Below are positions 2,068 to 51,419 of a DNA stretch of 64,000 nucleotides, in pieces (within the stretch, counting starts at the first letter, position 1; every line of letters starts with the position of its first letter). The DNA is from Escherichia phage myPSH2311. The notes below the pieces were generated by a model. The model had not been told where the DNA came from. It made no database searches and was given only the letters and a program-made list of their open reading frames with translations. The position numbers and the translations under genes were made by a program. The stretch lies in sequence record MG976803.1. One strand, 5' to 3'.

Positions 2068-3504
2068 ATGGCATTGCAGATTTTGTCTTTCAAGGCGTAT
2101 GACTTCCAAAAGAAATTTTATGCAGCAGGATTGAAGCATCGCTTTAGATTCTTGTGTGCAGCGAACCGTGTTGGTAAATCTTACAGCGAGGCATACGAGT
2201 TTGCTTGTCATGTCACAGGTCGCTACCCAACTTGGTGGACAGGATATAAATTTAAAAGACCTATCTTAGCATGGGCAGTTGGTATTACAGGGGATTCCAC
2301 AAGGAAAGTATTGCAAAAGGAATTGTTTGGTACACCTATCGGAAAGGATACAAATTTATTGGGGACAGGTGTCATTCCTCGTGATGCTATCGTCATTGAC
2401 ACGATAGAACGAGATGGTAACAAACTTCAAATCGTACAAATCAAACATCAAAATGAAAGAGGAGAATTTGACGGTTTAAGTACATTAGAATTCCGCTCAA
2501 CCCAACAGGGTGAACACACATTGATGGGTGCAACAGTTGACTACATTTGGTTAGACGAAGAAGATCCATACGAGTCTATGGCTATATTCGCACAGTGCGT
2601 CACACGTACACTCACAACTAAAGGTCTAGTTACAATTACAGCTACACCAGAGAACGGTTTAACTGAACTGGTAGATAAATTTATGAAAGGTGAAGGGGAT
2701 GAGAACACAGGTTCTCTATATTTCCAGAATGCTTCTTGGTGGGATGCTCATGCAGACCTAGGTGGACATATCACTGACCAAGATATAAAAGATATGACTG
2801 AAGGTATTCCAGCGTGGCAGTTAGAGATGCGTTCGAAAGGTATGCCATTGTTAGGAAGTGGTTTGATATATGATGTATCGGATGACACAATTAAATGTGA
2901 ACCATTCGAAATTCCGGATACGTGGAAACGTGTCTGTGCAATTGATATTGGTATTGATCACCCAACTGCTGCTGTTTGGACAGCTTACGATGCAAACACT
3001 GATACTATCTATGTTTACGACTCGTATAAAGAAGGTGGCTTTACTCCAGTGTATCATGCTCCAGCTATTAATGGTCGTGGTCAGTGGATTCCTGTCATCC
3101 TACCGCATGATGCGGACAATATTGAGAAAGGTAGTGGTTCATCTGTTGCTCAATTCTATAAAAATGCAGGAGTTAACGTACAGAGTGAGACCTTCTACAA
3201 CAAAATTGGAATGGATGGTAAAAAGAACTTCTTTGTAGAACCGGGAATCACAGATATCCGAGAAAGAATGATGAGTGGACGCTTTAAAATCTTTAACACA
3301 GCCGCTAACGCTAAGCTATTCGAAGAGAAAGCTAGATATCACCGTAAGGTTGGTAAGATTATTAAAGAACATGATGACTTAATGGATGCAATGCGCTATT
3401 CAGCGTGCTCTGTTACACATCGTGGTCGCTCTAAGCATGACGTTAGCTACGGAAGTGCTTCTCTGTATGAGGCAAACGTAAGCAGATGGAATCAGAGTTA
3501 CTAA
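2068..3504 (+). CDS. terminase large subunit
   Basis: 478 aa; P-loop-like CAANRVGKS, Walker B-like DYIWLDEED, nuclease-domain acidic residues (CAIDIGIDH); start uncertain, no SD. Confidence 0.85.
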   Translation: MALQILSFKAYDFQKKFYAAGLKHRFRFLCAANRVGKSYSEAYEFACHVTGRYPTWWTGYKFKRPILAWAVGITGDSTRKVLQKELFGTPIGKDTNLLGTGVIPRDAIVIDTIERDGNKLQIVQIKHQNERGEFDGLSTLEFRSTQQGEHTLMGATVDYIWLDEEDPYESMAIFAQCVTRTLTTKGLVTITATPENGLTELVDKFMKGEGDENTGSLYFQNASWWDAHADLGGHITDQDIKDMTEGIPAWQLEMRSKGMPLLGSGLIYDVSDDTIKCEPFEIPDTWKRVCAIDIGIDHPTAAVWTAYDANTDTIYVYDSYKEGGFTPVYHAPAINGRGQWIPVILPHDADNIEKGSGSSVAQFYKNAGVNVQSETFYNKIGMDGKKNFFVEPGITDIRERMMSGRFKIFNTAANAKLFEEKARYHRKVGKIIKEHDDLMDAMRYSACSVTHRGRSKHDVSYGSASLYEANVSRWNQSY

Positions 3505-3565
3505 AGTAAGGGGGAGGTTTGTCCTCCCTTCTTTTATTTAAGCTATCAACCGAGGGAGAGAATCG

Positions 3566-5296
3566 ATGGCTAAGCAAAAATATAGTGAAGAGGTGTTGGA
3601 CGAGTTACGTGTTGACCTTCAACGTCGTTTTAATTACGCTCAAGGTTACGTGGACATGGCTGTTAAGGGCTATGCTCGTGAAGCTTGGGAATATTTCTAT
3701 GGTAACTTACCTGCACCAGTAACTGCTGGCAGCTCTAGTTGGGTAGATCGTACTGTTTGGGAATCTGTTAACGGTACATTGCAAGATATTATTAACGTAT
3801 TCTGTTCTGGTGATGAAGCAGTTACTTTCGTAGCTGACAACCAACAGGATTCTGATGCTGCTGATGTAGCAACTAAACTAGTTAACCAAATTCTTCTGCG
3901 TGATAATCCGGGATACAATATTATCTCTTCTGCTGCACAAGAATGTCTAGTTACTCGTAACTCTTTTATCAAGTATTATTGGGATGAACAAACTTCTACT
4001 CAAACTGAAGAAGCTGAAGGTGTACCACCGGAAGCATTGGCTGCATATGTTCAGGGATTAGAAGCTGGTGGACTCAAGAATCTGGAAATCTTCACTGAAG
4101 AAAATGAAGATGGTACAGTGGATGTTAAAGTTACTTACGAACAAACTGTTAAACGTGTGAAAGTTGAATATGTCCCTTCAGAGCAAATCTTTGTTGACGA
4201 ACATGCTACCTCTTTTGCAGATGCACAATACTTCTGTCATCGTGTTCGTCGTTCTAAAGAAGATCTGGTTGCTATGGGCTTCCCTAAAGACGAGATTGAA
4301 GCATTCAACGACTGGACAGACACGATGGATACTACTCAATCTACAGTTGCTTGGTCTCGTACTGACTGGCGTCAGGATATTGATGCTGATATTGGTACAG
4401 ATACCGAAGATATTGCTTCTATGGTTTGGGTTTACGAGCACTACATTCGTACTGGTGTTCTAGATAAGAATAAAGAGTCTAAACTCTATCAGGTTATTCA
4501 AGCTGGTGAGCATATCCTTCACACTGAAGAAGTAACTCACATTCCGTTTGTAACCTTCTGTCCGTATCCGATTCCAGGCTCCTTCTATGGTCAATCGGTC
4601 TATGACATTACGAAAGATATTCAAGATTTACGTACCGCGTTAGTTCGTGGTTATATTGATAACGTCAACAATGCTAACTATGGTCGATACAAAGCTCTTG
4701 TTGGTGCATACGACCGTCGCTCTCTGCTTGATAACCGTCCCGGTGGAGTGGTTGAAATGGAACGTCAGGACGCTATTGACCTGTTCCCATACCATAACCT
4801 ACCTCAAGGTATTGACGGCCTCCTAGGCATGTCTGAGGAGCTTAAAGAGACACGTACAGGTGTAACCAAACTAGGCATGGGTATCAACCCTGATGTGTTT
4901 AAGAATGATAACGCTTATGCAACTGTAGGCTTGATGATGAATGCTGCACAGAACCGTCTCCGTATGGTGTGTCGTAACATTGCTCACAACGGTATGGTTG
5001 AATTGATGCGTGGTATTTACAACCTTATCAGAGAAAATGGTGAAGTCCCTATCGAGGTACAAACCCCTCGCGGTATGATTCAGGTAAATCCGAAACAATT
5101 ACCAGCTCGTCACAATCTCCAAGTTGTTGTAGCTATCTCTCCTAATGAGAAAGCAGAACGTGCACAGAAACTGATTAGCTTGAAACAGCTGATTGCAGCA
5201 GATGCACAGTTAGCACCTCTCTTTGGTTTGGAGCAAGACCGTTACATGACTGCACAGATCTTTGAGTTGATGGGTATTAAAGATACACATAAATAA
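3566..5296 (+). CDS. portal protein
   Basis: 576 aa ORF immediately after terminase; size and position typical; RBS GAGGGAGAGAA. Confidence 0.7.
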   Translation: MAKQKYSEEVLDELRVDLQRRFNYAQGYVDMAVKGYAREAWEYFYGNLPAPVTAGSSSWVDRTVWESVNGTLQDIINVFCSGDEAVTFVADNQQDSDAADVATKLVNQILLRDNPGYNIISSAAQECLVTRNSFIKYYWDEQTSTQTEEAEGVPPEALAAYVQGLEAGGLKNLEIFTEENEDGTVDVKVTYEQTVKRVKVEYVPSEQIFVDEHATSFADAQYFCHRVRRSKEDLVAMGFPKDEIEAFNDWTDTMDTTQSTVAWSRTDWRQDIDADIGTDTEDIASMVWVYEHYIRTGVLDKNKESKLYQVIQAGEHILHTEEVTHIPFVTFCPYPIPGSFYGQSVYDITKDIQDLRTALVRGYIDNVNNANYGRYKALVGAYDRRSLLDNRPGGVVEMERQDAIDLFPYHNLPQGIDGLLGMSEELKETRTGVTKLGMGINPDVFKNDNAYATVGLMMNAAQNRLRMVCRNIAHNGMVELMRGIYNLIRENGEVPIEVQTPRGMIQVNPKQLPARHNLQVVVAISPNEKAERAQKLISLKQLIAADAQLAPLFGLEQDRYMTAQIFELMGIKDTHK

Positions 5297-7076: not shown

Positions 7077-7117
7077 TCGACAAATTAAATTATTAATAGT
7101 ATAGGAGCTAACATAAC

Positions 7118-7453
7118 ATGGCTAATCCAACTTTATTTGTATCGTATGACCAGAATGGTAAAAAACTTTCTTTTGCTAACTGGATTTCTGTTCTGTCCCC
7201 TCAGGATACCCCGTTCGTATCTATGACCGGTAAAGAGTCTATCAACCAGACTATCTTTAGCTGGCAGACCGATGCACTGGCAAGCGTTGACAGTAATAAC
7301 GCACACGTCGAAGGCTCTCGTGCTGAAGACGGCGAAATGAAACCGACTGTTATCAAATCTAACGTTAATGGTCCTTTGGACGTGGTAACTGATTGCAGTG
7401 TCAAGTCTTGGCATATGTCCATGTCCATGGCATTAAGCTATAAAGGCGCTTAG
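7118..7453 (+). CDS. major capsid protein, N-terminal segment (ends at in-frame TAG)
   Basis: RBS AGGAG upstream; same reading frame as 7463-8065, separated only by TAG at 7451-7453 plus 9 nt. Confidence 0.55.
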   Translation: MANPTLFVSYDQNGKKLSFANWISVLSPQDTPFVSMTGKESINQTIFSWQTDALASVDSNNAHVEGSRAEDGEMKPTVIKSNVNGPLDVVTDCSVKSWHMSMSMALSYKGA

Positions 7454-7462
7454 ACATGCGTA

Positions 7463-8065
7463 TTGCGTCTGAATGACACCCATGCAGCTCGTAAGACTGG
7501 TGCATTCCAGTTCCTGTGTGCTCACGGTGGTCTGGCTGGTGGCGTTGTTGACAAGACCAAGAATGGTCCTGCTGACCCGGACACTGGTGCAGTAACTGTT
7601 AAAGTTGCACAGAATGCTTCTAACCCGACCACTAACATTGGTTTCGACGAAGCTGATATCTTTGATATGACTCTGCAACTGTATACCGCTGGTTCTGAAG
7701 CAGATATCATCATGATTAACCCGGCTCATGCTAAGATCTTTGCTGGTCTGCAAGAAAATACTCAGGGTTCACGTAAGCGTATCTTTGAGAACACCAAGCA
7801 GTTCATCTACGAAGTTAACAGCATCACTGACCCGCTGGGCCAGAGCTACAAAATCATCGTTAACCGTTGGATGCCTACCGATGCAGTTTACTTCTTCCGT
7901 AGCGCTGACTGGACCCAGATGGTTCTACGTGCTCCGAAACGTACTGAACTGGCTAAAGACGGTTCTTACGAGAAGTGGATGATTGAAATGGAAGTTGGTC
8001 TGCGTCACCGCAACCCGTATGCTTCCGGCGTTCTGTTCACTGCTGCGGGAAAGGTGGCGGCGTAA
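7463..8065 (+). CDS. major capsid protein, C-terminal segment
   Basis: 200 aa, TTG start in track, no SD; in frame with 7118-7453; followed by slippery site and Ig-like ORF. Confidence 0.55.
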   Translation: MRLNDTHAARKTGAFQFLCAHGGLAGGVVDKTKNGPADPDTGAVTVKVAQNASNPTTNIGFDEADIFDMTLQLYTAGSEADIIMINPAHAKIFAGLQENTQGSRKRIFENTKQFIYEVNSITDPLGQSYKIIVNRWMPTDAVYFFRSADWTQMVLRAPKRTELAKDGSYEKWMIEMEVGLRHRNPYASGVLFTAAGKVAA

Positions 8066-8589
8066 CAGTAGACAGTGTGACTGTTAGCCCTGCGTCTTTA
8101 GCAAGCCTAGAGACAGGGGCTACTCGGCAGTTCACTGCAAGCGCGGAGAAAAGTGATGGTTCTACCGAAACAACTGGCTTTACTTGGTCAGTGACAGGAG
8201 GTGGTTCTATCACTCAGTCGGGTTTGTATACTGCCCCGAGTGCGTCTCAATCCACTGATGTATCCATTACTGCAACTTTAGAAGGTGTTTCTGGTACAGC
8301 AACCATTTCTGAAATTGTTGCTCCTACTCCTACTATTGTGAGTCGTGGGCCAATTACAGGTAAAGTAGGTGGTACTACCACTAACTTCAACACCATGTTT
8401 ACTGTAACTAATTCTATTGCTGATGATTACACACTTGTTGTAACTCCCGCAGAAGCTGGTACAATAAGCGCTAATAATTCGTTAAAATTAGATGCTGCTG
8501 CAAGTGGCGAAGTTACTGTTCAAGCAAGTTTGACAGCTGACCCGTCCATCAATGCAACATGCACTTTTACTGGTGTAACACCTGCTTAA
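8047..8589 (+). CDS. capsid C-terminal Ig-like (Big_2-type) extension in the -1 frame
   Basis: heptamer G GGA AAG at 8047-8053 in capsid zero frame, 10 nt before capsid stop; -1 frame open to 8589 encoding VTVSPASL..TRQFTA..TWSV..SGLYTA Ig-like pattern. Confidence 0.6.
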   Translation, partial: GKGGGVTVDSVTVSPASLASLETGATRQFTASAEKSDGSTETTGFTWSVTGGGSITQSGLYTAPSASQSTDVSITATLEGVSGTATISEIVAPTPTIVSRGPITGKVGGTTTNFNTMFTVTNSIADDYTLVVTPAEAGTISANNSLKLDAAASGEVTVQASLTADPSINATCTFTGVTPA

Positions 8590-8597
8590 AAACTAGA

Positions 8598-8622
8598 CCC
8601 TGCCTTCGGGCGGGGTTTTTTT
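8598..8622 (+). terminator. rho-independent terminator
   Basis: CCCTGCC TTCG GGCGGGG hairpin followed by TTTTTTT. Confidence 0.75.
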
Positions 8623-8692
8623 CGTTTTAAGACCTATACAAGCTAGTGTGTAATGTATATTCTTTGTCTACATACAACAAGGAGGACAACCT

Positions 8693-9445
8693 ATGGCGAT
8701 GCCAGATGTGGCCTATCCGATTAACACGTATGGCTGGCTTAAGAAAGCTGTTGCCTTGTGGGCCGATCGGGACGATGACGAATTTGTTAATCAAATTCCA
8801 AACTTTATTAACTTTGCAGAGAAAGAGGTTTATCGTAACTTACGTATTCCTCCTCTGGAAAAAGAAGTGTATTTAGATATTAAAGATGGAGTGGCTTATA
8901 TTCCTCCTGATTACTTAGAAGCTCAATGGATGATGAGATCCAAAGATGGTACAATCTTCCAAGTAACATCTCCTGAGGAGATAAGCTATCGGAGACAGCA
9001 CGGGGCTATTAACTCTTCACATTGGAATAACCAACCTGTTAATTTTGCACGGTTTGGAGCACGTTTCTTATTCTATCCTAGAATAAATGCAGATGTTCCG
9101 CATTACCCTGATGATGGTAGTCCGATTGTTCCAGCGGAGAGTTCGGTAATCTTGAGTTATTATGCAGATCCTCCAGAATTTCACGAAGATGGTGATACAA
9201 GTGCGATTCTTACCATTGCACCAGAGCTTCTTTTATATTTTACTCTGAGGCATGCATGTTTATTTGTTCAAGATGATAATGGGGTTCAAAAGTGGTCTGC
9301 TTTAGGTAAGGCTATTCTTGACGAGCTAGTAGAACAGAATAAGAAACAAGAGTACTCAGGTTCACCTATTGCAATTCCGAATAACATGACTCGACTTCAG
9401 AGCAGCCTGCCTGATATTTATGGTATTCGTACTTCTCGTCTATAA
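8693..9445 (+). CDS. virion structural protein (possible head-tail adaptor)
   Basis: 250 aa, RBS AAGGAGG; position after capsid gene. Confidence 0.45.
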   Translation: MAMPDVAYPINTYGWLKKAVALWADRDDDEFVNQIPNFINFAEKEVYRNLRIPPLEKEVYLDIKDGVAYIPPDYLEAQWMMRSKDGTIFQVTSPEEISYRRQHGAINSSHWNNQPVNFARFGARFLFYPRINADVPHYPDDGSPIVPAESSVILSYYADPPEFHEDGDTSAILTIAPELLLYFTLRHACLFVQDDNGVQKWSALGKAILDELVEQNKKQEYSGSPIAIPNNMTRLQSSLPDIYGIRTSRL

Positions 9446-9454
9446 GGAGATAAT

Positions 9455-10579
9455 ATGATCGTTTATAACAACCAAGCACCTAAGAATGTTAACAATGTAG
9501 GACAATTTGGAGCTACTGAGGGAACTATTGGTGCTTATAAATCAGCAGCTGAATATGCAGCAGACTCTAAATATTGGGCATTGTTGTCCCAAACTAAATA
9601 CTCCTCAGTAGAGGAGATTTTGGCTGAAGTAGAACGTCTGTATGCTCAAGGTCATCTACTGGAAGAAGACATTAAACAACTCAAGAGTGACTTTGAGTCA
9701 CAAGAACAAGTGCTCTTAGGTTTGATTCAATCCACAGGAACTGCAATTGACAACACCAATGCAGCAACTGAGCTTTCAAAAGAGGCAACTCAAAACGTTC
9801 TAGCACAACTTGACATTATCTCTAACATGACAGTTCAAACAACGCTTCTTCCTCCGGGAAGCCTAGCTACGGGGTCTTATGATAATGCAACAGGTGTCTT
9901 TGCTTTTGGTATTCCAGAAGGTAAACCGGGGCGTGATGGTACTGACGGAACAATCGGTGATATTGGAAGCGTTCCTGTTGGTACCCCTGTTGTTGATGAC
10001 TATGGTTTCTATGTAGATAAAGATGATGGTGGTTTATACCGAGCTGACATGTCAGATATTGCCAACTTGATTCCATCTGTTCGATCTGTTTCAATCAATG
10101 GCGGCGCTGAACAAACAGGTTCAGTGGTTTTTGATTCTGTCTCCACATTCAATGGACGTAAGGGTGCTGTAGTTCCTGCTACTGGAGACTACACAGCTGC
10201 TCAAGTGGGAGCTTTTAGTGTAACTAATAACCTATCCGAAATAACCGACACAAGTGCAGCTATTACAAATATTGGACTCGCTGAGCATGGGATTGGTAGC
10301 CCTACCTTAACCAAAGTGAAGGCTATGGACTGGCAAACATTTAATTTTGTCAATGGAGGTAACTATTCAGTATTAATGTCGAATATTACAAATGCCCCTG
10401 CTGAGATAAATTATCCTGCCAATTATGGGTTATATCTTGAAGTCATTGGCGTAGTTACAGGAGGAGGTGAGGTACGAGTGGTGCCAATTGCATTGGGAAT
10501 CCTCTCAATGGCATATTTTCCGCTTGGCCAATGCGCTTATGCCGTGGCAAATGTGCCACAACTGCTGCATTGTGTGTAG
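9455..10579 (+). CDS. tail fiber protein, N-terminal segment (ends at in-frame TAG)
   Basis: RBS AAGGAG; short collagen-like GKPGRDGTDGTIGDIG; TGDYTAAQVGA fiber-type motif; last 30 codons look non-native. Confidence 0.5.
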   Translation: MIVYNNQAPKNVNNVGQFGATEGTIGAYKSAAEYAADSKYWALLSQTKYSSVEEILAEVERLYAQGHLLEEDIKQLKSDFESQEQVLLGLIQSTGTAIDNTNAATELSKEATQNVLAQLDIISNMTVQTTLLPPGSLATGSYDNATGVFAFGIPEGKPGRDGTDGTIGDIGSVPVGTPVVDDYGFYVDKDDGGLYRADMSDIANLIPSVRSVSINGGAEQTGSVVFDSVSTFNGRKGAVVPATGDYTAAQVGAFSVTNNLSEITDTSAAITNIGLAEHGIGSPTLTKVKAMDWQTFNFVNGGNYSVLMSNITNAPAEINYPANYGLYLEVIGVVTGGGEVRVVPIALGILSMAYFPLGQCAYAVANVPQLLHCV

Positions 10580-10705
10580 CATCGCCAGCTTAGCGCTGCA
10601 TCAATTGTACCTATTACCAAAGGTGGTACAGGAGCTACTTCATCAGAGAATGCTCGACTAGCTCTAGTTGCAGCTAAGAGTGGTGATAACTCTGATATCA
10701 CCTCG

Positions 10706-12445
10706 ATGACCAACAAGGTTACTTTCACACAATCTCCAGTAATTCCTGATGCTGTAGATGATAATGACGCGGTTGCTTTGAGACAGTTGCATACAAGTGA
10801 AGCAGATTTGCTGGCAAGGCTGAAAAGTAGTAATGCAGGTGAAGGTGCATCCCTTATTACCTTTGAAAATGGTAATTCTGTTGAGAGTCTTTCCAGTAAA
10901 GATGGGGCTAAAAACATTGGCAGTGGTGAGAGAAGTTTGCTTGTCCGTAACAACGACATTAAGCATTCAGGAGATTTCCCTACCTTACAAGCTGCGGTAA
11001 ATGCATCGTTACCAAAAAACGACTTAATTGTTTCCCCCGGTGAATACAGTGAAGCGATTACTATTGGTAGTACACAGTTAAAGGGTGTTGGTGGAGCCAC
11101 GGTACTGAAAGCTCCGTCAAACTTTACAGACACTATTCAGGTTAAGGCATCTACGCCTCATTGGCAATTCCGCCATAGTGGTGGTTTTGCTATAGATGGT
11201 TCTGGGACAACCGGGGCTGTAGGTATTAGTTTTGACCCGACCGACCAATATGCTGGTCGTCACAACTTTAGTGACGTATACATCCATAACATTAACAAGG
11301 CCATTCAGAAACCTTCCGGGAATATAGGTAATACATGGAAAGGCATTGGCGTGCAAGGTTGTGACTGGGGTTACTGGGCACAGTCTGCTTCTGAGATGCA
11401 CTTAGGCTCTGACACCCTTCAGAACATGCACTTTGATGGTATTAGCACTTACTGTGTTTACTTGAACGCTACAACAGGAGAAGCGCCTGGTACATTCGGA
11501 GGTGGTGTAGGCGGCTGGTGGATTAAAGATAGTATTATGGAAGCCTCTGGCGGTGGTGGTATTTACCTCAAGAACAAGGATGGTGACTGCCCTACTGCCC
11601 CATGTGGTGTATCCAATGTATGGATGGAAGCTATCGCTACTACTCCAGCTATTAATGTAGATGGTGTATCTCAGAAGCCTCGTGTCCTTAAACTTATTGA
11701 TACCAGTATCTTCTTTGCAGAGTACACATACCTTAATAACGTAGAGCTTCAGAACTCCAACCTTGTTACTTATGGCTGCCGAGTAGATAATTCAGATGGC
11801 CACATGGATATCTCTGTAGATGCCAACAGCAGTTTTGTGGCTGATCAATTGTACCTGAATGGTAGCTCCGGCAAAGATGTAATGGTACGTTCTGTAGCGG
11901 CTCAGACAGGCAAGATTGGGCAAAGCTGGTCACCTAATATGAGTATGCGTGGATACCTGCCGGAAGGATACATCTATCGTGTACCTGGTAATAAGCTGGT
12001 AGCTAAACCCTTCGATGGAGGTACTGCTGAATTTAGTGGTACGGCAAGCAGCACTGGGAGTTTGCAGCCACAAGGCCAGTTATCTCAGAGCTGCATGTAC
12101 TTCGAAATCCCTGGTGCTGCTGAGTATGAGCTTACTGGTGCTGCATTTCAGATAACTTCCGGTAACTGGTATGTATGGGGCATTAGCACTGAACTGGTAC
12201 AGGGAACCCCTACAAACTTCCGCATCGGTGGAGATATCAATGTAGGTGAAGTATTTACTAAGGGGGGCCAGTGGGTGAGTACCTTTGGTGTAGCTCAGGC
12301 TAGTGCTTCCGGTTCAGTGAACCTGCGCCTAAGTACAGCCGGTACAGGCGGAGTAGTCCTACGCCTCGCTGATTACTTCGTAGCGGAGTTCACTACTCAG
12401 GCAGAGGCTATGCGCTTCGCTAATAGTAGACGTGCCCTGCGTTAA
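10706..12445 (+). CDS. tail fiber/tailspike protein, C-terminal segment
   Basis: 579 aa; frame is open from 10580, directly after the TAG, and encodes VPITKGGTGATSSENARLAL fiber motif before the track start. Confidence 0.55.
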   Translation: MTNKVTFTQSPVIPDAVDDNDAVALRQLHTSEADLLARLKSSNAGEGASLITFENGNSVESLSSKDGAKNIGSGERSLLVRNNDIKHSGDFPTLQAAVNASLPKNDLIVSPGEYSEAITIGSTQLKGVGGATVLKAPSNFTDTIQVKASTPHWQFRHSGGFAIDGSGTTGAVGISFDPTDQYAGRHNFSDVYIHNINKAIQKPSGNIGNTWKGIGVQGCDWGYWAQSASEMHLGSDTLQNMHFDGISTYCVYLNATTGEAPGTFGGGVGGWWIKDSIMEASGGGGIYLKNKDGDCPTAPCGVSNVWMEAIATTPAINVDGVSQKPRVLKLIDTSIFFAEYTYLNNVELQNSNLVTYGCRVDNSDGHMDISVDANSSFVADQLYLNGSSGKDVMVRSVAAQTGKIGQSWSPNMSMRGYLPEGYIYRVPGNKLVAKPFDGGTAEFSGTASSTGSLQPQGQLSQSCMYFEIPGAAEYELTGAAFQITSGNWYVWGISTELVQGTPTNFRIGGDINVGEVFTKGGQWVSTFGVAQASASGSVNLRLSTAGTGGVVLRLADYFVAEFTTQAEAMRFANSRRALR

Positions 12446-27139: not shown

Positions 27140-27982
27140 ATGGAAGATAAGGGCATATCTAGAGAGGATGCTGAAGCATTTGCTGGTTCCTATATGGATA
27201 ACCGTTATGCACTTCTTGAGAAGCCTATGACTCCTACTGAACATCAGAATGCTCGTTCTCGTATCGAAGCTGATGTTGAGAAGTTTGCTAAGAAGTACGA
27301 ATCAATGACTCCTATCGAGAAAGAGATTGTTAAGGTTACTGGAGATACTGAAGGTAAGCTTGATAACTTGGATGCGGATACTAGGAAGGCTATTGAGGAG
27401 GCTCAGAAGGTTGACTCTGATATTAAGAAACTGCAAGAGGAAGAGTTGGAGATGGAGAAGATTCGTTCTGCTCTGCCTGATGATGAAAGATCTCAAGCAA
27501 ATTCTGATATCTTGGAAAGCATTAAACAACAGGAAGAGGTCTTTGCTGATAAAGTAGAGAAAGCTTTCTTGAGTGGGAAGAGCTTGGATGAGTTGGCTAG
27601 TGTGGCTGAAGTTTTAGACAGGGTTCATGGTGCAGATAAGGCTGGTAACAACCGTCGCTTTGTACGTGCATTGCAGACTGCTGCTGAAAACAAGAAGAAG
27701 TATGGTGATAATCCAGTAGCTTGGTTTAGTGCTGATGATTACTCTGCCATTGCTAAACTTGGTGCTTCTTCCGCAGGTGGTAACAAATCCAGAGCACTGG
27801 AGAAGATCTTTGGTTCTACAGCTGAACAGGCTAAGAGTAAGTTGCTTGGTAGGGATGATGTAGCGAAGATGAGACGTGTGATTGAAGAGAACCCTGATAT
27901 CAAGATTCCTTCTTACAAGACAGGTCAGGTTTCCAGTCCCAGTCAATGGGCATGCATGGTCCAAAATCGGCCCCTAGGGTAA
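27140..27982 (+). CDS. internal virion protein, truncated by insert
   Basis: track ORF 27113-27982; native-looking reading frame runs to 27922, last 20 codons derive from the filler. Confidence 0.45.
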   Translation: MEDKGISREDAEAFAGSYMDNRYALLEKPMTPTEHQNARSRIEADVEKFAKKYESMTPIEKEIVKVTGDTEGKLDNLDADTRKAIEEAQKVDSDIKKLQEEELEMEKIRSALPDDERSQANSDILESIKQQEEVFADKVEKAFLSGKSLDELASVAEVLDRVHGADKAGNNRRFVRALQTAAENKKKYGDNPVAWFSADDYSAIAKLGASSAGGNKSRALEKIFGSTAEQAKSKLLGRDDVAKMRRVIEENPDIKIPSYKTGQVSSPSQWACMVQNRPLG

Positions 27983-28022
27983 CGTCGGAATCCGGTACGC
28001 TTATGCCCCTAAGTGCATTTTT
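27923..28022. other. 100-bp GC-rich filler between perfect 81-bp direct repeats
   Basis: 27842-27922 is identical to 28023-28103; the intervening 100 bp is unrelated to flanks. Confidence 0.8.
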
Positions 28023-39856: not shown

Positions 39857-40292
39857 TTATGAGCTTAAAGCTCCTTTGCGTGCTCCAGCTGCTTTTCCAG
39901 CTCGATCACCACTTTTGCCGCCGTTTGAACGGTTTGAGCTGACTGATTCAACACGTAAGTTGCTTGACGCATTAGAGCCTCCAGACTTGACAGCTCGTTT
40001 GTGTCCAACGTCTTTACCTCTGACAGCAGCTTTTCCATCGCGCTTTTCAACGATGCGACGTGCACGGTGGCGCTGAGCATCTCCGCTCTTGCTCCCAATT
40101 CCCGTTTCACCGCGCTTGATCGCAGTCCTTCTTTCTTGTGCATAATCTCTCTTTCCTACATGATCTGCCATTAGATTTCTCCTGTTGGGCAATGACGTTA
40201 AACGCCCGTTGTGGCCCAAAATTGGCGCCCAAAATTGGGGCTTAATGCGTGCGTAATTTTTGGGCCAAATTAAGGCCGTATATAATAACAGC
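39857..40292. other. GC-rich segment fused in frame to the PhoH ORF; coding status unclear
   Basis: two overlapping minus-strand frames both look protein-like; local GC well above phage average. Confidence 0.4.
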
Positions 40293-41750: not shown

Positions 41751-42095
41751 TTAACTCTCCAAAGTTTTCTTCAGAGCTGCCCATGAGATTGGGTAGAGCT
41801 TAGCCATCTCTTCATCTACGGATTTAGCAAACACTCGAACTTCATATTGAGCGTGAGATGAGAGTCGCTGACGACACAACTCAAACCAGCCATACAAAGA
41901 ACCAGTCCACACCCACTCAGTGATCATCCCCTGAGGAAGAACAAATCGAGCTTGCTCTGGTGCAATAAATTCAATCAACTTGTCATATGTTGCTAGAGAA
42001 GCTTCATATGCATCGTTAATCAACATTAATGCTTCAGCTCGTTCTCCGTCGATGAGTTGAATCCCTGAACCTGCATGGTTTGCCCAAAATGGCAT
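41751..42095 (-). CDS. thyX: flavin-dependent thymidylate synthase ThyX, C-terminal half
   Basis: ARFVLPQG..RLSSHAQYEVR matches ThyX C-terminal conserved block. Confidence 0.6.
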   Translation of the reverse strand: MPFWANHAGSGIQLIDGERAEALMLINDAYEASLATYDKLIEFIAPEQARFVLPQGMITEWVWTGSLYGWFELCRQRLSSHAQYEVRVFAKSVDEEMAKLYPISWAALKKTLES

Positions 42096-42163
42096 TGGCG
42101 CTATAGCATGGGGCTTTTTAAATGGCCCCGCGGGTTAATGCTAATGGCGGATTTTGGCCACGG

Positions 42164-42469
42164 TTATGCATGCGTAGGGAGTTCAACTGCTCCATCTTTA
42201 TACCGCCGGGACATTTCGTTCCACGAGAATCCAACCTGATGCTTGCCCAGCTGTCTCGCAATTGCGATAGGTGCTTTGCATCGGAAACTGACTTGCGGGT
42301 GTCGGAATGGAGTACAGTGTTTTTCCCGTGCAAGGAAGTTGATAAGTTTTGTGTCTCTCTCATTTAAGTCACCTTCTCGAACAACACCGAAAGATACTCT
42401 AGCTGCATTGACTACAGATTTGTCACTACCCATTGCTTCAATCAGTGTTGCTTGTAGTTGTTCGTTCAA
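42164..42469 (-). CDS. thyX: flavin-dependent thymidylate synthase ThyX, N-terminal half
   Basis: AARVSF, HCTPFRH and KH..FSWNEMSRRY resemble the ThyX signature; separated from the C-terminal half by a filler. Confidence 0.6.
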   Translation of the reverse strand: MNEQLQATLIEAMGSDKSVVNAARVSFGVVREGDLNERDTKLINFLAREKHCTPFRHPQVSFRCKAPIAIARQLGKHQVGFSWNEMSRRYKDGAVELPTHA

Positions 42470-44034: not shown

Positions 44035-44237
44035 TATTATCCATTACCTGCTGGGTAATTACGATGCAGTTTAGGCATGGTAATGCGTTTAGGCGTCTTG
44101 GGGAGGTGCCCCCAGTTGCAAGCTGATGCTGCGGGTAAATTGGCGCCATGGGAAACGCGTTAATGCGTGCCTGATGTTATCTTTTCTCATGTGTTGCTCA
44201 AGATCCCAAACAACATGAATAGCCCACATCTTTTTCA

Positions 44238-49606: not shown

Positions 49607-49706
49607 AATGGGCCGTTTTATGCGGTTTAAAGGCCTTGACCAGTGCATTTGCCCGTTAAATGGCGTGGGGATTTCCCAGTGCGGGTGGCCAGTAAACGTG
49701 TTTTGT
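49607..49706. other. 100-bp GC-rich filler between 110-bp direct repeats
   Basis: 49497-49606 matches 49707-49816; intervening 100 bp unrelated. Confidence 0.8.
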
Positions 49707-50137: not shown

Positions 50138-50190
50138 AAAACCTCCAGCTTATCCGAACTAGCCTCCTCTTTCGAAGAGGCTAAAGCAGA

Positions 50191-50376
50191 TTACTCTGTA
50201 ATAAAGATTTTGATTACACCACAGATTGCTGCACTCTCAAATACTGCAACAGCTTCACTCCCCTGAAAGAAGGCCACTTTGCCGTCAGAGAAGTTAAACA
50301 TGTCAGCATCTAGGTCCATAGCTCGCATATCACCAGCGTCGTTAGTATCTTTAAACAGAACTTTATACTTATTCAC
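50191..50376 (-). CDS. small acidic protein C, copy 3
   Basis: 61 aa MNKYKVLFKDTND..., ends in Glu; identical to copy 2. Confidence 0.5.
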   Translation of the reverse strand: MNKYKVLFKDTNDAGDMRAMDLDADMFNFSDGKVAFFQGSEAVAVFESAAICGVIKIFITE

Positions 50377-50621
50377 AGATAGGTCACTCCTTTGTCTTGT
50401 TGTGCTTCAGAGATGATACGTTCTACACATTCCATAGAATACTTATCACCACGTTTCAGGAAAGTCACAATTGCAGAGAATTGATTACCAATCATTCGCT
50501 GATTAGTAATACCCCACTCCTCACACAACTTACGCAACTCTTTACGAGAGCCTACAATCAGAGGCTCTTTTTGTTCCATCATTCCATTTTGTACTAGATC
50601 TTCCAATGAAAACATATCCAT
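50373..50621 (-). CDS. small protein B, copy 3
   Basis: 82 aa MDMFSLEDLVQNG...; ATGA overlap with gene C. Confidence 0.5.
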   Translation of the reverse strand: MDMFSLEDLVQNGMMEQKEPLIVGSRKELRKLCEEWGITNQRMIGNQFSAIVTFLKRGDKYSMECVERIISEAQQDKGVTYL

Positions 50622-50627
50622 ATATCC

Positions 50628-51419
50628 TTAGTAGTTTACAACAGTGCCATCGTTCAGGGTAAGGCTATTAATCTGCAACACACGACCAAGCTGACGATCA
50701 CTAATTGGTGCGTTCCATCCAGAGCGGTAGAAGTTACGACCACAGAAGAACAAGATCACATTACTTGCTACAGTCGAACCGTTTTCAGGATGCTTGATGT
50801 TAGCGATATAATAACCACGACGCAGATTACGACGGGTTACAGGGTTGATCTCTAACCCTTGCTCTTCAACTTGCATTGTTTCAGGAACAGGTTCCGAAGA
50901 TTCTTCAGCAACTGGCTCGGAGCTTTCCACTGACAGTGCGTAATCCTCATCACCTGCTGGTGAAAATGTTTCTTCCACTTCTTCAACAGGAAGTTCGTAT
51001 GCAACACGATAGTCAGGCTCAACACCAGAGAAGCTCTTAACAAACTCAACAATATTGTGAGTATAGGTTTCCAGAGTTGTTCCAGTCAGTCCCGGAGCTG
51101 TGTTAACTTCCAGAACCCAAGCGTTAGTATTTTTACTAATCAGGTCAACAGCACCAAAGTTCAAACCCAGAGCAGATACAGCTTTGTGAGCTTGAATCAA
51201 AACCTGATCAGGAGGCGCATCTTGGAAGTTTGAGGAATAAACCCAACCAGTGTGATGATTTCGAACGTCTTCACGATAGGAAGGATCTTCACGGTAACCA
51301 TTACGACGAATCTTCTTCTGAACGTAAGTGATAACACCTTCGAATACATGAACACGCCATTCACGATTGGTGAACGATAAGGGAAAGGTCCTTGGCCATA
51401 GCGTGGCGTATGCATGCAT
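50628..51419 (-). pseudogene. ATP-grasp ligase 3-prime half, truncated copy
   Basis: starts within filler and joins ATP-grasp at REWRVHVFEG; retains EVNTAPG motif; lacks N-terminal ATP-binding half. Confidence 0.55.

What the first reader, a model, noticed from the sequence alone, without database searches (positions are those of the whole stretch)
8047..8589. Programmed -1 frameshift site appending an Ig-like domain to the capsid protein
The slippery heptamer G GGA AAG (8047-8053) sits 10 nt before the capsid stop, and the -1 frame is open for about 180 codons with a Big_2-like pattern, followed by a strong terminator. This parallels T7 10A/10B and frameshift-added Ig-like decoration domains.
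Basis: partly seen in the sequence, partly recalled or inferred. Interest (0 to 1): 0.7.

Follow-up and report, generated by a model that had tools for sequence, protein, structure and literature searches.

The report
Known capsid frameshift adding Ig-like domains

Summary
The window is a Kuravirus genome, 99.6% identical to Escherichia phage ES17 around the finding. G GGA AAG (8047-8053) lies in the correct phase of the major capsid protein (MCP) frame, three codons before TAA 8063-8065. The -1 frame then stays open for 178 codons to TAA 8587-8589, followed by a strong terminator.

Heptamer and frame relation are conserved in every Gordonclarkvirinae locus examined and in a Proteus phage with 51% MCP identity. 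The annotated GTG 8077 start has no Shine-Dalgarno and is GTA in four relatives. AlphaFold2 (pLDDT 96) folds the extension as two tandem Ig-like domains; the best PDB match is the LigA Big_2 tandem.

It is cited as shown for phiEco32 (Savalia 2008). SU10 mass spectrometry found 38.5 and 55.4 kDa forms (Mirzaei 2014). YF01 (2023), Privateer (2021) and the joined CDS in phage Paul's RefSeq record describe it too.

Caveat: here a 99-nt filler (7368-7466) replaces 70 MCP codons and carries an in-frame TAG. It is one of about 30 breaks against ES17. This exact sequence could not make a full-length fusion. No downstream stimulatory RNA structure could be established.

The parts
7118..7367 (+). 5' part of the major capsid protein gene (codons 1-83, SU10_MCP family), with an AGGAG Shine-Dalgarno upstream
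   Evidence: Identical or nearly identical to ES17 and phiEco32 MCP. Pfam SU10_MCP E 7e-18. Anti-SD duplex energy -6.5 kcal/mol.
7368..7466 (.). 99-nt non-homologous filler that replaces 210 nt (about codons 84-153) of the MCP gene. It keeps the frame but contains an in-frame TAG at 7451-7453. Probably an artefact.
   Evidence: Alignment to ES17 and phiEco32. No match in 50,697 phage records at E<=1. It is one of about 30 breaks against ES17, many of them ~100 nt with GC ~0.5 and no ES17 homologue.
7467..8065 (+). 3' part of the MCP gene (ES17 residues about 154-352), ending ...LFTAAGKVAA and TAA at 8063-8065
   Evidence: 100% amino-acid identity to many Kuravirus MCPs. Pfam SU10_MCP E 3e-34.
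8047..8053 (+). Slippery heptamer G GGA AAG, the site of the -1 tandem tRNA slip (tRNA-Gly and tRNA-Lys)
   Evidence: In phase. Invariant in all Gordonclarkvirinae loci and in Proteus P59. Named as the slip site in PMC9965538, PMC4281155 and PMC7881722 and in the Paul RefSeq note.
8053..8589 (+). -1 frame extension: 178 codons plus TAA. Public records annotate it as a separate 'Ig domain containing protein' starting at GTG 8077.
   Evidence: PHROG 13745 'Ig domain containing protein', E 4e-75.
8062..8310 (+). Ig-like domain 1 (extension residues about 6-88). It begins upstream of GTG 8077.
   Evidence: AF2 strands E8-E87, pLDDT 96. Pfam Big_2 match at residues 8-85, sub-threshold. Foldseek hit to the LigA tandem Big_2, E 5e-11.
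8323..8586 (+). Ig-like domain 2 (extension residues about 93-180)
   Evidence: AF2 strands E96-E178. PHROG 33551 and 13745. Foldseek matches to two-domain Ig tandems.
8077..8079 (+). GTG used as the start codon by annotation pipelines. Judged not to be a real conserved start.
   Evidence: SD duplex energy -1.7 kcal/mol, equal to the background median of -1.9 and far from the -6 to -11 of real neighbouring starts. It is GTA in Paul, KBNP1711, ECBP2 and P59. Gene callers pick many different internal starts in homologues.
8054..8093 (+). Candidate proximal hairpin, core UAACAGU/ACUGUUA at 8063-8069/8080-8086. A possible frameshift stimulator, unproven.
   Evidence: -15.5 kcal/mol, z -1.3. 93% of cells paired across 7 sequences, but with no covariation.
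8073..8137 (+). Candidate larger hairpin starting 19 nt after the heptamer. Unproven.
   Evidence: -33.5 kcal/mol, z -2.0. It is the RNAalifold consensus; 3 of 27 pairs have a compensatory change.
8595..8628 (+). Intrinsic terminator that closes the capsid transcription unit
   Evidence: 10-bp stem with 6 G-C pairs, TTCG loop, T-run. Conserved in ES17 and phiEco32. Annotated as a terminator in phage Paul.

Best explanation
This is the conserved programmed -1 ribosomal frameshift site at the 3' end of the Kuravirus (phiEco32-like) major capsid protein gene.

Most ribosomes read ...TAAGK-VAA and stop at TAA 8063, giving the 352-aa HK97-fold MCP. A minority slip back one base when tRNA-Gly and tRNA-Lys occupy GGA AAG, re-pairing to GGG AAA. 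They continue with GGT GGC GGC GTA... and add a Gly-rich linker plus two tandem Ig-like (Big_2-type) domains. The result is a fusion of about 527 aa and 55 kDa that co-assembles into the prolate head as a minor, surface-decorated capsid subunit.

Shown here: the slippery site and its phase, the -1 ORF, their conservation, the absence of a credible independent start, and the Ig-like fold.

Taken from the literature: the fusion protein exists in virions of close relatives.

Inferred: the efficiency (a few percent, by analogy with the identical heptamer in lambda G/GT and with T7 10A/10B), the outward display, and an adhesion role.

In this window the MCP gene upstream is broken by a 99-nt filler. 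The site is therefore intact, but the full fusion could not be made from this exact sequence. I take the filler to be an artefact.
For: - Identity: 99.6% to ES17, and 122 Kuravirus-like records matched.
- Heptamer in phase and -1 ORF of 178 codons. It is an outlier among 55 in-phase heptamers, whose median -1 run is 7 codons.
- Conservation: GGGAAAG at the same Lys codon with a 170-545 codon -1 ORF in ES17, phiEco32, Paul, ManiMatter, KBNP1711, ECBP2, SU7, IMG/VR loci L017-L021 and Proteus P59.
- The zero-frame tails vary (VAA, VAAA, LDPQQ, AGA, VVA) while the -1 sequence ...VTV(D/E)SVTVSP is kept.
- More distant relatives keep a -1 Ig-domain ORF at the homologous Lys codon, with G GTA AAG as the heptamer.
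- No Shine-Dalgarno before GTG 8077, and no other start codon in that frame from 7987 onward. GTG is GTA in four lineages.
- Two Ig-like domains at pLDDT 96; the top PDB hits include the LigA Big_2 tandem and Hoc.
- Literature: SU10 MS found 38.5 and 55.4 kDa forms of the head protein. The YF01 paper describes the slip across the group. Privateer showed two bands and MS detection of the minor capsid protein.
Against: - No downstream stimulatory structure could be demonstrated. The proximal hairpin is conserved without covariation, and the larger hairpin starts 19 nt away.
- Pfam Big_2 is below the gathering score.
- The SU10 cryo-EM head showed no extra density, and its authors treated gp10 as a separate protein. 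The YF01 authors report a premature -1 stop in the SU10 genome, so the published experimental record is not fully consistent.
- The primary phiEco32 paper (Savalia 2008) could not be read here.
- In this window the MCP ORF has an in-frame TAG at 7451 and lacks 70 codons.
- No experiment has been done on this sequence or on ES17 itself.
Confidence: 0.9

Rival explanations
1. The Ig-like protein is made only by independent initiation at GTG 8077, as most GenBank/RefSeq records annotate it. It would then act as a free decoration or accessory protein, and the heptamer would be coincidental.
For: ES17, phiEco32, SU7 and ManiMatter records annotate a separate 170-aa CDS. The SU10 cryo-EM authors discuss gp10 as a separate protein and saw no density for it.
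Against: There is no Shine-Dalgarno: -1.7 kcal/mol, at the background median. GTG is GTA in Paul, KBNP1711, ECBP2 and P59. Gene callers choose many different internal Met starts that truncate domain 1. Domain 1 begins upstream of 8077. The -1 frame is open back through the heptamer in every relative. SU10 MS found a 55.4 kDa form.
Confidence: 0.04
2. In this particular sequence the element is inert. The genome copy is defective or artefactual (a patchwork of ES17-like segments and filler), its capsid gene is truncated at TAG 7451, and ribosomes never reach the slippery site as part of a full-length MCP.
For: A 99-nt filler replaces 70 codons and introduces a stop. There are about 30 breaks against ES17, many of them ~100-nt segments with GC ~0.5, an odd repetitive look and no ES17 homologue, and one region is triplicated. 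The filler matches no phage record.
Against: The frameshift cassette itself (8020-8630) is base-for-base identical to ES17 except for one extra T in the terminator. The biology of the site is therefore that of ES17. This concerns the provenance of the window rather than offering a different mechanism.
Confidence: 0.05
3. The shift happens during transcription: RNA polymerase slips and makes mRNAs with one base more or fewer, rather than the ribosome slipping.
For: None specific. The fusion protein would look the same.
Against: The runs are only G3 and A3. From established knowledge, transcriptional slippage needs homopolymer runs of about 6-9 or more. The conserved feature is the phased X XXY YYZ pattern, which matters only for tRNA re-pairing.
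Confidence: 0.01

Closest known systems
phiEco32 gp11 / gp11-12 and the long MCP isoform of Kuravirus-like phages (SU10 CDS9+10, YF01 gp8, Paul gp009)
   Same: Same gene, same heptamer GGGAAAG at the same Lys codon, and the same -1 direction. The extension is homologous: the region is 97% identical across the window, ES17 and phiEco32. The mechanism is described in PMC9965538 and PMC4281155 and in the Paul RefSeq annotation.
   Different: Nothing in the frameshift cassette differs. Extension length varies within the group (about 178 codons here, 545 in Paul). Here the upstream MCP gene is interrupted by filler.
T7 / T3 gene 10A/10B capsid frameshift
   Same: A -1 frameshift near the 3' end of a podophage MCP gene gives a minor, C-terminally extended capsid subunit. 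The published papers draw this analogy themselves.
   Different: From my own knowledge: the slippery sequences differ, the T7 extension is much shorter (about 50 aa), and the MCP family is unrelated at the sequence level (SU10_MCP, PF17236, here).
Lambda G/GT tail assembly chaperone frameshift
   Same: The slippery heptamer G GGA AAG is identical and the direction is -1. The ~3.5% rate is cited in PMC9965538.
   Different: It lies in a tail chaperone gene, not a capsid gene. Its product is an assembly factor that is not kept in the virion.
Ig-like domains on phage structural proteins (Fraser et al. 2006), T4/RB49 Hoc, and the mucus-adherence (BAM) model
   Same: Surface-exposed Ig-like (Big_2 / I-set) domains on capsids, often added by a programmed frameshift. 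Hoc appears among the structural hits and gives a weak PHROG match.
   Different: Hoc is a separate decoration protein that binds hexamer centres. Here the domains are covalently fused to a fraction of the MCP subunits.
Second MCP paralogue with an in-frame C-terminal Big_2 in Grimontviridae (Cronobacter A24, Salmonella pSal-SNUABM-01, Aeromonas BUCT695)
   Same: The end product is the same: an SU10_MCP-family capsid subunit carrying Big_2 domain(s).
   Different: It is reached by gene duplication with an in-frame fusion. There is no slippery site and no -1 ORF after the first MCP gene.

Membership tests
Programmed -1 ribosomal frameshift (tandem slippage, X XXY YYZ) | Slippery heptamer X XXY YYZ in the correct phase of the upstream (zero) frame | tested here: met
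   G GGA AAG at 8047-8053, with codon boundaries at 8048 and 8051.
Programmed -1 ribosomal frameshift (tandem slippage, X XXY YYZ) | A long coding ORF in the -1 frame that begins at or before the heptamer and lacks its own start | tested here: met
   The -1 frame is open from 7987 to 8589. It has no start codon before 8077, and that GTG has no SD. At 178 codons it is an outlier against a median of 7.
Programmed -1 ribosomal frameshift (tandem slippage, X XXY YYZ) | Heptamer and frame relation conserved in diverged relatives | tested here: met
   Invariant in 12 Gordonclarkvirinae loci and in Proteus P59 (51% aa identity). G GTA AAG with a -1 Ig ORF is found in four or five more distant lineages.
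Programmed -1 ribosomal frameshift (tandem slippage, X XXY YYZ) | Stimulatory element: a downstream hairpin or pseudoknot 5-9 nt away, or an upstream SD-like sequence | tested here: inconclusive
   The proximal hairpin (-15.5 kcal/mol, z -1.3) is conserved but shows no covariation. The larger hairpin (z -2.0, 3 compensatory pairs) starts 19 nt away. No upstream SD-like sequence was seen by eye in the bases before the heptamer, and there is no Rfam match.
Programmed -1 ribosomal frameshift (tandem slippage, X XXY YYZ) | Trans-frame fusion protein detected | not testable with these tools
   Reported for relatives only: SU10 55.4 kDa form by MS, Privateer, and phiEco32 as cited by those papers. 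The primary phiEco32 paper is not held.
Big_2 (PF02368) bacterial Ig-like domain | Score at or above the Pfam gathering threshold | tested here: not met
   17.4 bits against a cut-off of 22.8, E 0.004. Homologous extensions in relatives do pass, for example L022 at 118.9 bits and P59 at 66.3 bits.
Big_2 (PF02368) bacterial Ig-like domain | Ig-like beta-sandwich fold resembling solved Big_2 domains | tested here: met
   AF2 pLDDT 96.1 with two all-beta domains. Foldseek top hit is the LigA Big_2 tandem (8gyr), E 5e-11; also Big_2-CBM56, invasin and Hoc.
SU10_MCP (PF17236) HK97-fold major capsid protein | Full-length match to the family profile in one intact ORF | tested here: not met
   Both fragments match (profile positions 6-79 and 136-289), but profile positions 80-135 are missing and an in-frame TAG separates them. 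ES17 MCP matches positions 7-289 and is essentially identical to the solved SU10 head protein 7z45.

The most novel reading that the evidence does not exclude
The nearest relative, ES17, is the phage known for unusually strong binding to mucin and heparan sulfate. That work credits only its tail fibre protein and states that the fibre is unrelated to Hoc and has no Ig-like fold as predicted by the BAM model (PMC7885116).

The evidence here does not exclude that the frameshift-made capsid subunits also contribute to that mucus or glycan adherence. They would display tens of copies per head of a tandem Big_2-type module that resembles the LigA host-adhesion domains.

More broadly, the 'MCP, -1 slip at a Lys AAG codon, Ig module' junction may be ancestral to a wide clade of prolate podophages. 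The Ig cassette appears to be swapped (Big_2 or I-set), and in some lineages the slip is replaced by a duplicated MCP-Big_2 gene.
Probability: 0.15. Interest if true: 0.45.

Novelty: already known. Interest (0 to 1): 0.12.

Why it matters
For annotation: most public Kuravirus records, including ES17, still list the extension as a separate 'Ig domain containing protein' with an arbitrary start. Only a few, such as Paul, encode the joined product, so the site is worth annotating correctly.

For biology: it gives these therapeutic-candidate coliphages a sub-stoichiometric, capsid-displayed Ig-like adhesin module. This may matter for mucus adherence of ES17-like phages, but the mechanism itself is textbook and already published for this group.

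For this scan: the more useful result is that the window is not a clean natural genome. The capsid gene and other genes are interrupted by filler segments, which should temper any finding drawn from this window.

Tried and rejected
- Rfam scan of 7300-8700 at E<=1. It returned only two chance-level sRNA matches over the terminator and no frameshift element.
- Covariation test of the proximal hairpin. Pairing is 93% but there are zero compensatory changes, so it is uninformative. The RNAalifold consensus for the larger hairpin has 3 compensatory pairs of 27, from only 7 closely related sequences. I make no claim for a stimulator.
- The stem-loop proposed by Mirzaei et al. encloses the heptamer in its loop. 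It would already be melted when the ribosome sits on the site, so I do not regard it as a classical stimulator.
- Attempt to read Savalia et al. 2008, the primary phiEco32 evidence. It is not held, so its content is cited only second-hand.
- Search for the origin of the 99-nt patch 7368-7466 in the phage collection at E<=1. No match.
- The only other long -1 run after an in-phase heptamer is TTTCCCT at 51386 on the - strand. It lies inside the filler 51367-51460 in the triplicated region and is an artefact of a spurious host frame.
- Transcriptional slippage was rejected because the runs are only 3 nt long.
- Heptamer frequency alone is not significant.

Full report
**What the window is.** The region 7100-8650 is 99.6% identical to Escherichia phage ES17 (Kuravirus, Gordonclarkvirinae). 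It matches 122 phiEco32-like phage records. Gene order is portal, small ORF, scaffold, major capsid protein (MCP), 'Ig domain containing protein', adaptor-like virion protein, tail fibre, as in ES17 and phiEco32.

**Check of the observation.**
- GGGAAAG occupies 8047-8053. The MCP frame reads GCG|GGA|AAG|GTG|GCG|GCG|TAA, so the heptamer is in the canonical X XXY YYZ phase, three codons before the stop at 8063-8065.
- After a -1 slip the reading continues GGT GGC GGC GTA ACA... for 178 codons to TAA 8587-8589. The junction is ...LFTAAGK|GGGVTVDSVTVSPASL....
- A terminator follows at 8595-8618: a 10-bp stem, a TTCG loop, then T7.
- The heptamer by itself is unremarkable, with 10 copies against 7.35 expected.
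- Its context is exceptional. The 55 in-phase XXXYYYZ heptamers in long open frames have a median -1 run of 7 codons, and this one has 178. Given the -1-frame stop density of 0.11, the probability is about 7e-10.
- The only longer run (51386, - strand) lies in a filler/duplication junction and is spurious.

**Frameshift or independent start.**
- The -1 frame is open from 7987. Its first start-like codon is GTG 8077, which annotation pipelines use.
- That GTG has an anti-SD duplex energy of -1.7 kcal/mol. The median of all start-like triplets in the window is -1.9. Five of the six neighbouring gene starts tested score -6.2 to -11.4; the ATG at 10706 scored +0.6.
- GTG is replaced by GTA, which is not a start codon, in Paul, KBNP1711, ECBP2 and Proteus P59.
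- In the large protein database, gene callers gave homologues many different N-termini (MTVSP..., MASLL..., MSDGS..., MTGGG..., MYTAP..., MSITA...), most of which truncate the first domain. The PHROG profile likewise starts only at extension residue 35.
- The first Ig-like domain begins upstream of 8077.
- All of this argues against a conserved independent start.

**Conservation.**
- GGGAAAG sits at the same Lys codon, followed by a -1 ORF of 169-545 codons, in ES17, phiEco32, Paul, ManiMatter, KBNP1711, ECBP2, SU7, five IMG/VR loci, and Proteus phage P59, whose MCP is only 51% identical.
- The short zero-frame tails differ (VAA, VAAA, LDPQQ, AGA, VVA, or an immediate stop), while the -1 sequence VTV(D/E)SVTVSP is kept.
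- Further out, three uncultivated contigs (64-66% MCP identity), Aeromonas LAh_8 and Pantoea TacPo2 also have a -1 ORF opening at the homologous Lys codon. Their heptamer is G GTA AAG.
- Those ORFs encode Big_2 or I-set domains; in L022 and LAh_8 the scores are above Pfam thresholds, while TacPo2's Ig matches are sub-threshold.
- Lineages with no -1 ORF (Cronobacter A24, Salmonella pSal-SNUABM-01, Aeromonas BUCT695) instead carry a second MCP paralogue directly downstream, and it has Big_2 fused in frame.

**What the extension is.**
- Pfam Big_2 is sub-threshold for this sequence: 17.4 bits against 22.8.
- AlphaFold2 on a 26-sequence alignment gives mean pLDDT 96.1 and two all-beta domains, at residues about 6-88 and 93-180.
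- Foldseek's best PDB match is the tandem Big_2 segment of Leptospira LigA (E 5e-11). Big_2-CBM56, invasin, S-layer Ig domains and RB49 Hoc follow.
- The extension is therefore two Ig-like domains, not one.
- With an intact 352-aa MCP (K349 at the slip), the fusion would be about 527 aa. This agrees with the 55.4 kDa SU10 form.

**RNA signals.**
- A proximal hairpin spans 8054-8093, with a core of UAACAGU/ACUGUUA that starts 9 nt after the heptamer. It folds at -15.5 kcal/mol with z -1.3. It is 93% paired across seven sequences but shows no covariation.
- A larger hairpin spans 8073-8137 at -33.5 kcal/mol, z -2.0. It is the RNAalifold consensus, with 3 compensatory pairs of 27, but it starts 19 nt downstream.
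- No Rfam family matches.
- I consider a stimulator unproven. The same heptamer works in lambda G/GT at a few percent without a strong one (rate cited).

**What is already known.**
- Mirzaei et al. 2014 identified 'a potential ribosomal slippage (GGGAAAG)' fusing the SU10 head protein to the Ig-like CDS10 'as in phage phiEco32'. They found 38.5 and 55.4 kDa forms by MS.
- The Privateer paper reports the same signal, two bands and MS detection. It states that the frameshift product was observed in phiEco32 and SU10.
- The YF01/Kuravirus paper describes the short and long MCP isoforms for the whole group.
- Phage Paul's RefSeq record has a joined CDS annotated 'Frameshift at GGGAAAG'.
- Some inconsistency exists. 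The SU10 cryo-EM map shows no extra density, and the YF01 authors report a premature -1 stop in SU10.
- The finding is therefore correct but already known.

**Caveat specific to this window.**
- The MCP gene is not intact. Window 7368-7466 (99 nt) replaces 210 nt (about codons 84-153) of the ES17 gene. It keeps the frame but carries TAG at 7451-7453. It matches nothing in the phage collection.
- A whole-window comparison with ES17 shows about 30 breakpoints where ES17 sequence is missing. At these places the window holds short mismatches or segments with no ES17 homologue, many of them ~100 nt with GC ~0.5 and an unnatural repetitive look. One region is also triplicated with diverged copies.
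- The frameshift cassette itself is base-for-base ES17 apart from one extra T in the terminator.
- I interpret the filler as an artefact of how the sequence was assembled or constructed. Taken literally, this sequence could not produce a full-length MCP or fusion.

**Verdict.** Novelty is 'already known' and interest is low.

Noticed in passing
window 7368-7466: A 99-nt segment with no homologue replaces 210 nt (70 codons) of the major capsid protein gene relative to ES17 and phiEco32. It preserves the frame but contains an in-frame TAG (7451-7453), which splits the MCP ORF into 7118-7453 and 7463-8065. It has no match in 50,697 phage records at E<=1.
   Followed up: partly
whole window, e.g. 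10487-10595, 27923-28022, 40185-40286, 42079-42178, 44072-44171, 49607-49706, 51367-51460, 52764-52859, 54527-54623, 60549-60648: Against ES17 the window is collinear at 98-100% identity over most of its length, but broken at about 30 places where ES17 sequence is missing. The window segments there are often almost exactly 100 nt, with GC ~0.5 (window 0.425) and a repetitive, 'typed' look (AATGGC, TTGGCC and GCATGC motifs; ATGCATGCATGCATGC at about 51420). This looks like an artificial patchwork or scaffold rather than natural variation. Several genes, the tail fibre among them, are cut.
   Followed up: partly
window 50147-51366, 51461-52763, 52860-54526: Three consecutive window segments all map to the same ES17 region (about 52052-53751) at 93.7%, 92.0% and 99.8% identity. 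They form a triplication of diverged copies separated by ~95-nt fillers.
   Followed up: no
L022-L024 (IMG/VR contigs) about 3409-3930; L005/L025 (Aeromonas LAh_8) about 3519-3797; L014 (Pantoea TacPo2) about 3420-3833: Distant relatives (about 50-66% MCP identity) keep a -1 ORF with Ig-type domains that opens at the homologous Lys codon at the end of the MCP gene: Big_2 x2 and I-set above Pfam thresholds in L022 and LAh_8, sub-threshold Ig_3/I-set in TacPo2. Their heptamer is the non-canonical G GTA AAG. This suggests the capsid frameshift is much older and wider than Kuravirus, and that the Ig cassette is exchangeable. Their public records annotate separate small proteins, one of them as 'tail protein'.
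   Followed up: partly
L004 3618-4703 (Cronobacter A24), L006 2575-4368 (Salmonella pSal-SNUABM-01), L008 2569-3801 (Aeromonas BUCT695): Related phages without a slippery site or -1 ORF have a second MCP paralogue immediately downstream of the first, with Big_2 domain(s) fused in frame at its C-terminus. This is an alternative genetic route (duplication instead of frameshift) to an Ig-tagged minor capsid subunit.
   Followed up: partly
window 8077-8589 and ES17 record (L001 2589-3101): The mucin and heparan-sulfate binding of ES17 was attributed solely to its tail fibre, and the authors state that the fibre is unrelated to Hoc and has no Ig-like fold (PMC7885116). Yet ES17 encodes this capsid-fused tandem Ig-like module, and its record does not annotate the frameshift product.
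   Followed up: no
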